From the NCBI GenBank assembly GCA_020137815.1, contig CM035362.1, positions 1,302,001 to 1,366,000 of the forward strand: a DNA stretch of 64,000 nt, given 5' to 3'. The DNA comes from Hormiphora californensis. Its lineage: Eukaryota > Animalia > Ctenophora. The notes under the pieces were generated by a model, which was given only the letters and a program-made list of their open reading frames with translations, ran no database searches and was not told the origin of the DNA. This document shows, one piece after another, positions 4,896 through 42,800 of this stretch; within the stretch, counting starts at the first letter, position 1; every line of letters begins with the position of its first letter. Made by a program: the position numbers and the translations under genes.

Positions 4896-5144
4896 ATGGA
4901 GCAAAGAGAAAACAGTATGTTACGACAAAGATATCTGAAGATTATGATGAAACTACAAGGTCAAAGTTGCCAGCTCCGGTGCCATGAACGTACAAAGCTC
5001 TCTGGGATTTATCAGACGATCGCTCCCACATCAGACTTTATCATTCTGTCGGATGTTAAAACTCCAACGGAGGTTGTTCCTTCATGCGCTGTGAGGCAGA
5101 GTGATGTTATTTGTATGTCTGTAGAAACTCCCAAAAGCCTTTGA
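4896..5144 (+). CDS. GEMIN7: Gem-associated protein 7 (Sm-like fold), intronless
   Basis: LRQRYLK...CHERTKLSG...LSDVKTP...VRQSDVI resembles Gemin7 LRERYL...LHE...SQLQTP...LRCSDII. Confidence 0.8.
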   Translation: MEQRENSMLRQRYLKIMMKLQGQSCQLRCHERTKLSGIYQTIAPTSDFIILSDVKTPTEVVPSCAVRQSDVICMSVETPKSL

Positions 5145-5205
5145 AATCGTTTTGTTTTTCGTGTTTTCTCTACATTTTCTACCACCTCACTATTATACTA
5201 ATAGC

Positions 5206-39650: not shown

Positions 39651-39845
39651 GCTAGGCTGGGTCCAGGTGGGCGATAAACGGGATTAAAATCGAAAAACTA
39701 GCTAAAAAGTTGGAAAATGAAGTTATTTTGATAAGAATTTGCCGAAAAAAAATCGACTTTAGCCCCGGACTCCAATAGCCCTGCTCTGCCATATCTCAAA
39801 TATCAACTATCCTACCTTATTTAATTAAAGTACATCATTCTAGTG

Positions 39846-42800
39846 ATGGAGAATTCAAAGGTTCCTATCGAGGAGATAATCTCAAATTTAGATAGCAAGG
39901 ATATAACTGTTCATGATTCTGCTGTTCAAAAGGTATGCAAGTATCATGTAATCAAGTTAATTCATCAAATTTTATTCAAATATTATATTTATCAACCGAT
40001 CTCGAAATCTAATAGCTGTTCATCATAGACAGGGTTAGACTTTACCACTGGATAATATCCCAAACAGATTCGACAAAGTTTAAACGAGAACGAGCAAGTG
40101 TTGGACCTCCTGATAGGGCAGTATTACATGACGCTCTCGGAGAACGTAATGCATGTCCTCATAATGCTTACCAACGAGAGCAGGGCACCCAAACTATTTG
40201 ACTCGGTAAAATATTTGCTATCTAACAATTTAAGCACTGTATTTGTTAAACAGATAAATGTTAAGAGAGATATTAGGGTTCACGTCTCTCGCCACAATCT
40301 AAAGCATGAAGTCCACTGATGTTGTTTCCACATATATGTCCATACTGATGTGATCAGTTCTTCAGACGGCACTTTCACAAGACCTTCTAGTGGTGAATAA
40401 AAAAGGAGTACCACTCCCCGAATCACCGAGGTTGGCATCTCATCGGATAGTCTCCCAGGTACCTTCTTGTTTTCTGGGCCCTAAAGGTGTAAATGTGATT
40501 AGAAGAGGTGGGATACAGAGAACCTCTTTTAGTCGCGTGACTTGGTTTTCAAGTCGGGGCTACGTCAGCGAAGGAGGGTATGTAGAGACTAGAGAGGTGA
40601 TATGTGGCGAAACAAGGGTAGTATGAAAGATTAGGTCGTGCGCGCCAAATGGCGCCATATGGCGCCAAATGGCGCCATCATATTCGCCAAATGGCGCCAC
40701 GTGGCGAACAAATGGCGCCATTTGGCGCCAAAATGTGGCGAGTGCGCACTATCGCCAAATGGCGCCATTTCTGGCGCCAAATGGCGCCATTTGGCGCCAA
40801 ATCTGGCGCCGCGTGGCGCCACGTGGCGCCAGTGGCGATCGCCATTCGCCAAATGTTGGCGACTCTTGGCGGTATCGCCACGTGGCGATGGTATGAAGCC
40901 ATATGGCGACAAATGTTTGTCAAACGATTGTCGCCATATGGCGCCATTTGTCGCCATTTGGCGCCAAACGTCGCCATTTGGCGCCAAATGTCGCCATATA
41001 GCGCCAAATTTTTGTCGCCATTTGGCGCCAAACGTCGCCATATGGCGCCATTTGTCGCCACTTGGCGCCAAACGTTGCCATTTGGCGCCAAATGTCGCCA
41101 TATAGCGCCAAATTTTTGTCAAATTTTTGTCGCCATTTGGCGCCAAACGTCGCCATATGGCGCCATTTGTCGCCACTTGGCGCCGAACGTCGCCATTTGG
41201 CGCCACACGTCGCCATTTGGCGCCAAACGTCGCCATATGGCGCCAAATTTTTGTCAAATGTTTGTCGCCATTTGGCGCCATTTGTCGCCACTTGGCGCCG
41301 AACGTCGCCATTTGGCGCCAAATGTCGCCATATACCGCCAAATGGCGACATATGGCGCAAATTGTTTGCCAAATGTTAGTCGCCATTTGGCGCCAAACGT
41401 CGCCATTTGGCGCCAAATGTCGCCATATGGCGCCAAATTTTTGTCAAATATTTGGTGCCAAACGTCGCCATTTGTCGCCGAACGTCGCCATTTGGCGCCA
41501 AATGGCGACATATGGCGCAAAATGTTTGTCAAATGTTAGTGGCCATTTGGCGCCAAATGTCGCCATATGGCGCCAAACGTCGCCATTTAGCGCCATATGG
41601 CGACGTTCGGCGCCAAATGGCGACTAATATTTGACAAACATTTTGCGCCATATGTCGCCATTTGGTGCTGGAGTCAATACACCCTTGATGCAGTCAAATG
41701 AGTAACACCGAAGATAGCACTTGGATTCACTACCCTGTTATTAGAATGACAGGGAGGGGGTTTATGCAAGGTGTTAGGTTTCGTGGGCCGAGGGCCGGGG
41801 TTCACAAGGGGGACCGGGGTTTTGGTTTCGGGTCAAATCTATACACAGATATCAAGTTTGGTGTTAAATAACCTGCCTGGGATTGGCCAAAGTAATCGTA
41901 CAAAATGATATCAATCTTTATAAAAAGGAGCCGAACTGCCCGAACTACAACGTCGGGATGAGGGGAAAAAAAAGACGACACTATAACAGCCCGCTACCGC
42001 TCTGAAAACCACTGACAGACAGCAGACAGTGAACCTAAAAAAAAGGAGAGCTATGCCCCCGCTCTACAACACATAGTAAACAACCACACAGAACTCGTAA
42101 CTAAGGTCACGTGATCGGTCATCAGCCAATCAGGGACTCCCTCAGCTCTCACTCGCCAGTGTGCATAAATATCTACAACAATCTCACCTCTCTCTCACAC
42201 TAGTATAACTAGGCGATCTCTCCCTCCCTAATACTTCTCACACAATCTCTCCTTATCTTGTCTCGCGGAGTTGCAAATTCCCGAGACAGAGAAAAGGGGG
42301 AGAAATACAGAGAGAGAAAGATCACCACTCAGGACCACTATTCAGACTCTTCTCACCAACAAACAAACCAACATACACCAGTGCTTTATGGCGACATTTG
42401 GCGTCAAATGGCGACGTTCGGCGCCAAGTGGCGACAAATGGCGCCATATGGCGACGTTTGGCGCCAGATGGCGACAAACATTTGACAAAAATTTGGCGCC
42501 AAATGGCGACGTTTGGCGCCAGATGGCGACGTTTGGCGACAAATGGCGGCTAACATTTGACAAACAGTTTGCGCCATATGTCGCCAATTGGCGCCATATG
42601 GCGACATTTGGCGCCAAATGGCGACGTTCGGCGCCAAGTGGCGCCATATGGCGCCAGATGGCGACAAACATTTGACAAAAATTTGGCGCCATATGGCGAC
42701 ATTTGGCGCCAAATGGCGACGTTTGGCGCCAGATGGCGACAAATGGCGACTAACATTTGACAAACAGTTTGCGCCATATGTCGCCACTTGGCGCCATATG

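What the first reader, a model, noticed from the sequence alone, without database searches (positions are those of the whole stretch)
4896..39846. Candidate SL-trans-spliced polycistronic unit (animal operon) of about nine unrelated genes
Seen: Gemin7, SMPD2, WDR83, ZNF-A/B/C, actin-like, MICU, RMDN and TSC1 are all on the plus strand. Stop-to-ATG gaps are 61, 289, 229, 482, 890, 216, ~265 (excluding repeats) and 439 bp. Most ATGs follow an AG acceptor with no evident upstream exon: ctaaTAGcATG (5206), CTAACcccgtacCAGgaaATG (11937), CTAAC...ccCAGttagaaaatcATG (13135), tttaTAGttgaggatcATG (15198), gttTAGtaaaccATG (18788), CTAACcacattaTAGtttgtaATG (31760), ttcTAGtgATG (39846). Known: spliced-leader trans-splicing resolves operons in nematodes and tunicates, and SL trans-splicing occurs in ctenophores. 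Inference: one precursor is cut into monocistronic mRNAs, from a promoter possibly divergent with the GST gene.
Basis: partly seen in the sequence, partly recalled or inferred. Interest (0 to 1): 0.85.

Follow-up and report, generated by a model that had tools for sequence, protein, structure and literature searches.

The report
Candidate short operon in comb jelly
In a comb jelly, up to four unrelated genes sit head-to-tail 61-289 bases apart and likely share one transcript that leader splicing would cut up, which would add comb jellies to the animals with operons, but the proposed ten-gene, 35-kb unit is unsupported.

Summary
The window comes from a Pleurobrachia comb jelly (WDR83 99% identical to P. 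bachei). Ten genes do lie on one strand. Acceptor-like AGs before their ATGs are real: 6 of 10 pass threshold against 10% of control ATGs (p 1e-4), and the first gene, Gemin7, has none. A WDR83 orthologue contig from another ctenophore begins with the last 7 bases of the published ctenophore leader, 2 bases before its ATG. Leader splicing is therefore likely, but it is pervasive in this family (at least 56% of reads), and 4 of 5 unclustered genes here carry such AGs too, so the AGs do not mark an operon. The operon case rests on spacing: 61, 289 and 229 bases across Gemin7-SMPD2-WDR83-ZNF-A, plus one low-depth unspliced contig across the first junction. Odds: short operon(s) 50%, separate promoters 28%, whole unit 10%. 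No leader was seen on this species' own RNA. Ten literature searches found no ctenophore operon. The scan noted similar layouts on other DNA before, none in ctenophores.

The parts
4896..5144 (+). Gemin7, single exon, 82 aa; likely first gene, no acceptor-like AG before its ATG
   Evidence: Pfam PF11095 E 3e-15; acceptor score -2.1
5145..5205 (+). 61-nt Gemin7-SMPD2 gap, 48% T, no AATAAA/ATTAAA/TATAAA, no ATG; TAG acceptor at 5202-5204
   Evidence: crossed unspliced by run X1 contig 5126-5338, depth 2.9
5206..11647 (+). SMPD2-like endonuclease/exonuclease/phosphatase gene, 6 exons, intact (385 aa); intron 1 is 4.9 kb and mostly repeats
   Evidence: tblastn of P. bachei P0042; model; one intron seen spliced in X4
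11648..11936 (+). 289-nt gap; AATAAA at 11702 and 11706; CTAAC then CAG acceptor 3 nt before the WDR83 ATG (score 8.5)
   Evidence: X1 contig covers 11666-11816, past both hexamers
11937..12905 (+). WDR83, single exon, 322 aa; an orthologue contig begins with the leader tail
12906..13134 (+). 229-nt gap; no donor above threshold, no ATG; CTAAC then CAG acceptor 10 nt before the ZNF-A ATG (score 10.0)
   Evidence: oligo-dT contig of X2 runs to 12930
13135..14715 (+). ZNF-A, C2H2 gene, 2 exons; the window has one extra base near 13297 that an X1 contig lacks
   Evidence: Pfam; splice 13552>13855 and loose end at 13298
15198..17897 (+). ZNF-B, C2H2 gene, best read as 4 exons in one frame (758 aa); 482 nt after ZNF-A; acceptor score 6.5
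18788..19699 (+). ZNF-C, single-exon C2H2 ORF, 303 aa; 890 nt after ZNF-B; acceptor score 5.9
19916..23288 (+). Divergent actin-like gene lacking about 65 N-terminal residues, frameshift at 22794; true start unresolved, possibly a pseudogene
   Evidence: Pfam Actin on 3 exons
23289..26624 (.). Satellite built from the actin-like stop-codon region, split by a minus-strand retroelement fragment
   Evidence: zf-RVT E 2e-4
26890..31320 (+). EF-hand gene, MICU-like (name recalled), 11 exons; weak acceptor 21 nt before the ATG (score 1.4)
31321..31759 (+). 439-nt gap; six CTAA[C/T] motifs in the 100 nt before the TAG acceptor of RMDN (score 7.3)
31760..36472 (+). TPR gene, RMDN-like; stop at 36456 or 36472 depending on the last donor
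32720..33501 (-). Nested antisense spliced ORF in RMDN intron 2; cysteine-rich with hydrophobic ends; no Pfam hit
36473..39845 (.). About 3.4-kb repeat-rich RMDN-TSC1 gap with a CpG-rich stretch at 36780-36960 (o/e 2.05)
39846..40205 (+). First two exons of a TSC1-like gene; acceptor 2 nt before the ATG (score 7.1)
2044..2250 (-). GST first coding exon, divergent, 2645 nt from Gemin7; also has acceptor-like AGs before its ATG

Best explanation
Gemin7, SMPD2, WDR83 and ZNF-A likely form a short operon: a promoter upstream of Gemin7 would make one precursor, and the ctenophore spliced leader would be joined at the acceptor just before each downstream ATG to release single-gene mRNAs. The Gemin7-SMPD2 pair is the firmest part (about 70%). 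SHOWN: shared strand, spacing, above-chance acceptors, and no acceptor before Gemin7. SHOWN IN A RELATIVE ONLY: a leader tail on a WDR83 orthologue. INFERRED: the shared precursor, the promoter position, and coupling of upstream 3'-end formation to trans-splicing (as in nematode, tunicate and Hydra operons). The genes from ZNF-B to TSC1 are probably trans-spliced too, but likely belong to several separate units; MICU-RMDN may be a second pair.
For: Leader splicing is on at least 56% of long reads in the sister species (PMC8527503 passages). Six of the 8 downstream genes with a clear start pass the acceptor threshold (p 2e-5), while Gemin7 does not. L001, a 1092-nt contig whose protein clusters with Bolinopsis microptera WDR83, starts ATTTGAG, then 2 nt, then ATG; this is the end of the AATTTGAG leader motif (chance about 1e-4 at one place, 1e-3 over ten). 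Only 60 nt separate the Gemin7 stop from the SMPD2 acceptor, too little for a 3' UTR, promoter and outron (inference). An X1 contig runs unspliced over 5126-5338 and overlaps one at 5003-5153. RNA contigs leave at most 117 nt (11816 to 11934) and 194 nt (12930 to 13125) uncovered before the next acceptor. The WDR83-ZNF-A gap holds no donor above threshold, against 6.4 per kb in background. A validated Hydra operon has a gap under 417 nt (PMC3273482 passages).
Against: No leader was seen on this species' RNA: none of the loose ends shown (10 of 12, 15 of 21) is leader-like, though 6 of the 10 starts lay outside the two stretches laid and only the SMPD2 start was covered. That one contig is unspliced at the SMPD2 acceptor, which fits a precursor but equally fits no trans-splicing there. 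It has depth 2.9, reaches only 19 nt into Gemin7 coding DNA, and comes from a random-primed library that may hold DNA; the tool itself says a contig across two genes shows no single transcript. Acceptor-like AGs also precede 4 of 5 unclustered genes within 60 nt (null 27%, p 0.02; one score inflated by a microsatellite). The SMPD2 acceptor scores just under threshold. L001 is one contig, a 7-nt match, from a distant lineage. Hormiphora and Mnemiopsis share blocks of at most four genes, so long conserved operons are not expected. No genome-wide gap distribution could be computed.
Confidence: 0.5

Rival explanations
1. Every gene has its own compact promoter, some overlapping the upstream gene's 3' end, and receives the leader after a short outron. 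The cluster is ordinary head-to-tail packing in a genome where most mRNAs are trans-spliced.
For: Acceptors precede 4 of 5 unclustered genes too. In tunicates one leader serves both operon and monocistronic genes, so leader presence alone over-calls operons (PMC7986045 passages). In a chaetognath nearly half of genes are trans-spliced but only 18% are in operons. AATAAA lies 228-232 nt (SMPD2-WDR83) and 785 nt (ZNF-B to ZNF-C) before the next acceptor.
Against: The 60 nt from the Gemin7 stop to the acceptor would force the SMPD2 promoter into Gemin7 coding DNA. RNA contigs fill much of the next two gaps. Gemin7 alone lacks an acceptor. The first three gaps are AT-rich (31-33% GC).
Confidence: 0.28
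2. One reading: one promoter drives a precursor of 35-45 kb through all ten genes, and the two long gaps were short until repeats were inserted.
For: Ten genes on one strand (p 0.002-0.008). The actin-MICU gap has only 265 nt outside a satellite/retroelement block. The RMDN and TSC1 acceptors are strong. A nine-gene operon is reported in a chaetognath.
Against: Gaps of 482, 890, 3601, 439 and about 3380 nt. A CpG-rich stretch lies after RMDN. The zinc-finger genes are paralogues whose common strand tandem duplication explains. The actin-like gene is broken with an unknown start, and the MICU acceptor is weak (1.4). No RNA evidence exists beyond position 15900.
Confidence: 0.1
3. Some of these AGs are ordinary cis acceptors. 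They are joined to short non-coding first exons, or to coding exons upstream (for example ZNF-C fused to, or nested in, the actin-like gene), or the whole run is nested in a long same-strand host intron.
For: Same-strand nested genes are common in Hormiphora (2357 nested genes, many parallel). The actin-like gene lacks its N-terminus and has a strong acceptor at 19889 (9.3). The ZNF-C stop sits in a GT dinucleotide that joins in frame to an AAG acceptor at 19909. Donors above threshold occur in 7 of the 9 intergenic gaps.
Against: WDR83 orthologues are stand-alone proteins of 316-322 aa and one carries the leader tail. The WDR83-ZNF-A gap has no donor and the 61-nt gap is shorter than the shortest modelled intron (65 nt). 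The ZNF-C donor scores under 2. Candidate actin N-terminal exons did not beat shuffles (268 of 1000; 378 or more of 1000).
Confidence: 0.12

Closest known systems
Spliced-leader trans-splicing in the ctenophore Hormiphora californensis (Schultz et al. 2021, PMC8527503)
   Same: Same family (Pleurobrachiidae). A leader ending in AATTTGAG is on at least 56% of long reads, which explains AG acceptors before most ATGs here.
   Different: The main text has no occurrence of 'operon' or 'polycistron'; supplements could not be read. The leader itself was not seen on this window's transcripts.
Hydra RFC140-flp bicistronic operon (PMC3273482)
   Same: Non-bilaterian animal; unrelated genes head-to-tail; gap under 417 nt with a T-rich stretch and an AG acceptor; upstream gene need not be trans-spliced.
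   Different: Shown by reporter, promoter test and RT-PCR; here only layout and thin RNA hints. Up to four genes here, not two.
Tunicate operons (Ciona, Oikopleura) and chaetognath operons (Paraspadella), resolved by non-specialised leaders (PMC7986045, PMC12460157)
   Same: The same leader(s) serve operon and single genes, so operons are called by distance; housekeeping genes predominate.
   Different: Their cut-offs are 60-100 bp (tunicates) and 250 bp (chaetognath) between gene ends. Here 3 of 9 stop-to-ATG gaps are under 250 nt, one of them the unresolved 216, and two exceed 3 kb.
C. elegans SL2 operons (PMC7986045)
   Same: An acceptor close behind the upstream gene's 3' end, about 100 bp.
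   Different: No operon-specific leader is known in ctenophores, so the SL2 diagnostic cannot be applied.

Membership tests
Leader-resolved animal operon | Adjacent genes on one strand | tested here: met
   10 of 10 main genes on +; one antisense ORF nested in an intron
Leader-resolved animal operon | Short intercistronic distance, first three junctions | tested here: met
   61, 289 and 229 nt stop-to-ATG; at most 117 and 194 nt left uncovered by RNA contigs in the second and third
Leader-resolved animal operon | Short intercistronic distance at all nine junctions of the proposed ten-gene unit | tested here: not met
   482, 890, 3601, 439 and 3373-3389 nt; the 216-nt junction is unresolved
Leader-resolved animal operon | Splice acceptor before each downstream start, none needed on the first gene | tested here: met
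   6 of 8 downstream genes with clear starts pass; SMPD2 borderline, MICU weak, Gemin7 none. Not specific: 4 of 5 unclustered genes also pass
Leader-resolved animal operon | Leader joined at the downstream acceptors | tested here: inconclusive
   Leader tail on one WDR83 orthologue contig; none on this species' low-depth contigs
Leader-resolved animal operon | Precursor RNA spanning neighbouring genes | tested here: inconclusive
   One unspliced contig, 5126-5338, depth 2.9, DNA not excluded
Leader-resolved animal operon | One promoter, none in the gaps | not testable with these tools
   No chromatin or cap data; contigs cannot show starts. CpG content only
Leader-resolved animal operon | Linkage kept in relatives | not testable with these tools
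   No ctenophore genomic contig was reached; searches with SMPD2 and Gemin7 returned one relative each, without context
Genomic leader exon cis-spliced to a gene cluster | A leader copy with a donor upstream of the cluster | tested here: not met
   0 matches to 25 nt of the Hormiphora leader at up to 3 mismatches; one chance-level 15-nt hit at 18008 (33 of 100 shuffles); no Rfam hit. The Pleurobrachia leader may differ, and DNA outside the window was not seen

The most novel reading that the evidence does not exclude
Comb jellies have true operons, and this locus is a ten-gene one: a single promoter before Gemin7 drives 35-45 kb of transcription through retroelement-filled gaps and an antisense nested gene, and one leader releases each mRNA. 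It would be among the longest animal operons and the first in ctenophores.
Probability: 0.1. Interest if true: 0.78.

Novelty: new member of a known kind. Interest (0 to 1): 0.5.

Why it matters
Operons resolved by leader splicing are described in nematodes, tunicates, Hydra and chaetognaths. Ctenophores have the leader, but I found no operon report for them (searches; open-access library only; Derelle et al. 2010 was not held). A confirmed operon in this early-branching phylum would support the view that operons follow wherever leader splicing arises. It would also mean that annotated ctenophore 'promoters' taken from mRNA 5' ends are often trans-splice sites, which bears on regulatory-genome studies. 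The 61-nt Gemin7-SMPD2 junction is a cheap test case because published Hormiphora long reads exist.

Tried and rejected
No whole genome was held, so there is no genome-wide baseline for gap length or strand runs. The run search found only small shares (0.00-0.17 of words); 4 of 5 listed runs were laid, on 10250-15900 and 1900-5400 only, and uncovered parts prove nothing. Run X5 is a relative at roughly 85-95% identity and showed no gene start. The metagenome scan gave 1 close WDR83 locus of 20, a transcript-sized contig without neighbours. Viral contigs held no SMPD2 relative and no leader match. Testing linkage through accession numbers failed: SMPD2 and Gemin7 searches returned one relative each. 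The idea that ZNF-C is nested in the actin-like gene through a candidate first exon at 18293-18391 was not supported: no PDB or Pfam hit, rank 18 of 127,888 positions, 268 of 1000 shuffles as good. A ZNF-C/actin fusion is in frame only through a weak donor and an AAG acceptor. Alternative last exons for ZNF-B were dropped because one four-exon frame is open. CTAAC branch motifs are not significantly richer at 5' acceptors (3 of 8 vs 4 of 34, p 0.11). The TAG excess (6 of 8 vs 6 of 34, p 0.004) does not differ from random non-coding YAGs (p 0.17). Scan look-ups by place and by sequence returned nothing.
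Full report
ORGANISM. The single-exon WDR83 at 11937-12905 is 99% identical to EukProt protein EP00116_Pleurobrachia_bachei_P006534. The last SMPD2 exon is 94% and an actin-like exon 86% identical to P. bachei models. The window is thus a Pleurobrachia comb jelly, either a divergent P. bachei haplotype or a close species. No whole genome was held.

OBSERVATION. 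All quoted ATG contexts are present, and ten coding genes lie on the plus strand (models). Stop-to-ATG gaps are 61, 289, 229, 482, 890, 216, 3601, 439 and 3373-3389 nt. Three genes are zinc-finger paralogues. The actin-like ORF starts at about actin residue 63-67 and has a frameshift at 22794 that the P. bachei model lacks, so its start is unknown. A spliced antisense ORF lies in RMDN intron 2. The strand run has p 0.002-0.008 under random orientation, a null that I could not calibrate on the genome.

ACCEPTORS. A matrix from 34 cis acceptors of the window scores 6 of 10 ATGs above the 10th percentile of true acceptors within 25 nt, against 9.9% of 352 non-coding ATGs (p 1.4e-4). Without Gemin7 and the actin-like gene it is 6 of 8 (p 2e-5). 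Gemin7, the first gene, scores -2.1. The same test on five genes outside the run (GST, FUN14-like, kelch, a nested membrane-protein gene and the nested cysteine-rich ORF) gives 4 of 5 within 60 nt, against 27% by chance. The AGs are real, but they are a general trait of this genome's genes.

LEADER SPLICING. In the sister species Hormiphora californensis a 35-48-nt leader ending in AATTTGAG is on at least 56% of long reads (PMC8527503, passages). A scan of metagenome contigs returned one close WDR83 locus among 20. L001 is 1092 nt long, its protein clusters with Bolinopsis microptera WDR83, and it begins with ATTTGAG, two bases, then ATG. The chance is about 1e-4 for one place and 1e-3 over ten. 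In the window the acceptor lies 3 nt before the ATG. This is one contig and 7 bases from a distant lineage, but it is the expected sequence at the expected place. No leader copy was found in the window, which argues against cis-splicing from a nearby genomic leader exon.

RNA OF THIS SPECIES. Only environmental runs with low-depth contigs hold the locus. They confirm two introns (10421>10508 and 13552>13855). They show that an X1 contig lacks the extra base that frameshifts ZNF-A in the window. An X1 contig covers 11666-11816, beyond both AATAAA hexamers of SMPD2 and 117 nt short of the WDR83 acceptor; an oligo-dT contig carries WDR83 to 12930. In the second laying an X1 contig runs unspliced from 5126 to 5338, over the Gemin7 stop, the gap and the SMPD2 acceptor, and overlaps another at 5003-5153. 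Eight of the nine near-identical X1 pieces are mostly coding and one contig is spliced, so RNA is likely, but DNA is not excluded, depth is 2-3, and the first stretch was the one the runs were found with. None of the loose ends shown (10 of 12, 15 of 21) is leader-like. Nothing downstream of 15900 was laid.

MECHANISM. The likeliest reading is a short operon. The 60 nt between the Gemin7 stop and the SMPD2 acceptor contain no common poly(A) hexamer, are shorter than the shortest modelled intron (65 nt), and cannot plausibly hold a 3' UTR, a promoter and an outron. Gemin7's 3' end may be set at or near the trans-splice site, as in tunicate operons that lack intercistronic DNA (PMC7986045, passages); this is inference. 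The next two gaps fall within the range of the validated Hydra operon (under 417 nt; PMC3273482, passages) and near the 250-bp rule used for chaetognaths (PMC12460157, passages). Past ZNF-A the evidence is only strand and acceptors. Gaps lengthen, AATAAA lies 785 nt before the ZNF-C acceptor, the MICU acceptor is weak, and a CpG-rich stretch (o/e 2.05) follows RMDN. I put the short operon at 0.5 (Gemin7-SMPD2 alone about 0.7), separate promoters at 0.28, cis-spliced or nested arrangements at 0.12, and the ten-gene unit at 0.10.

SIDE TESTS THAT FAILED. I looked for the missing actin N-terminus upstream of ZNF-C, which would make ZNF-C a same-strand nested gene of the kind common in Hormiphora. 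The candidate at 18293-18391 has the right loop spacing by eye but no statistical support. A ZNF-C/actin fusion needs a weak donor and a rare acceptor. Both remain open. Linkage in other ctenophores could not be tested; Hormiphora and Mnemiopsis share blocks of at most four genes.

NOVELTY. Leader splicing in ctenophores is known, and so are leader-resolved operons in other phyla. Ten searches of the open-access library (listings read, plus passages of PMC8527503, PMC7986045, PMC10282587, PMC12460157, PMC12221973, PMC3273482, PMC5619915 and PMC6005172, and section 38 of PMC8527503) showed no ctenophore operon. The main texts of the Hormiphora genome paper and of the Mnemiopsis chromatin paper do not use the word. 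Derelle et al. 2010 was not held and the Hormiphora supplements could not be read; either may bear on this. The scan has noted similar layouts in other genomes, also without RNA proof; these are not support. It works like a Hydra- or tunicate-type operon; membership is unproven. Interest 0.5.

Noticed in passing
window 13297: ZNF-A has one extra base that breaks its frame; an RNA contig of run X1 lacks it, so it is an assembly error or a null allele.
   Followed up: partly
window 23265-26624: A 25/38/63-nt satellite made from the last codons and stop of the actin-like gene, split by a minus-strand retroelement fragment.
   Followed up: partly
window 19916-23288: Very divergent actin-like gene lacking about 65 N-terminal residues; the only real relative among 1.8 billion representatives is a 106-aa P. 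bachei fragment.
   Followed up: partly
window 32720-33501 (-): Spliced cysteine-rich ORF with hydrophobic ends nested antisense in an RMDN intron; it resembles a GPI-anchored three-finger-type protein by recall, with no Pfam hit.
   Followed up: partly
window 13135-19699: Three paralogous C2H2 genes; ZNF-A and ZNF-B share an N-terminal CxxC and repeated VQT motifs that recall dynein light chain LC8 binding sites (recalled, untested).
   Followed up: no
window 31654-31753: Six CTAA[C/T] branch-point-like motifs within 100 nt before the RMDN acceptor, against 0-1 at the other seven 5' acceptors.
   Followed up: partly
window 58601-59855 (-) inside 57197-63200 (+): A multi-pass membrane (GPCR-like by eye) gene nested antisense in an intron of a kelch-repeat gene.
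   Followed up: no
window 50040-52677 (-): FUN14-like gene converging on the TSC1-like gene and ending the plus-strand run; Pfam E 0.003 on one exon.
   Followed up: partly
window 40640-43400: GC-rich array of TGGCGCCA-type palindromic units inside an intron of the TSC1-like gene, with terminal inverted ends and an inner insert.
   Followed up: no
window 21160-21930: A 256-codon ORF, apparently a retroelement 3' end, lies on the plus strand inside an intron of the actin-like gene; no Pfam hit.
   Followed up: no
window 5386-10269: SMPD2 intron 1 is 4.9 kb of tandem ~1.07-kb (x3) and 302-nt (x3) repeat units.
   Followed up: no
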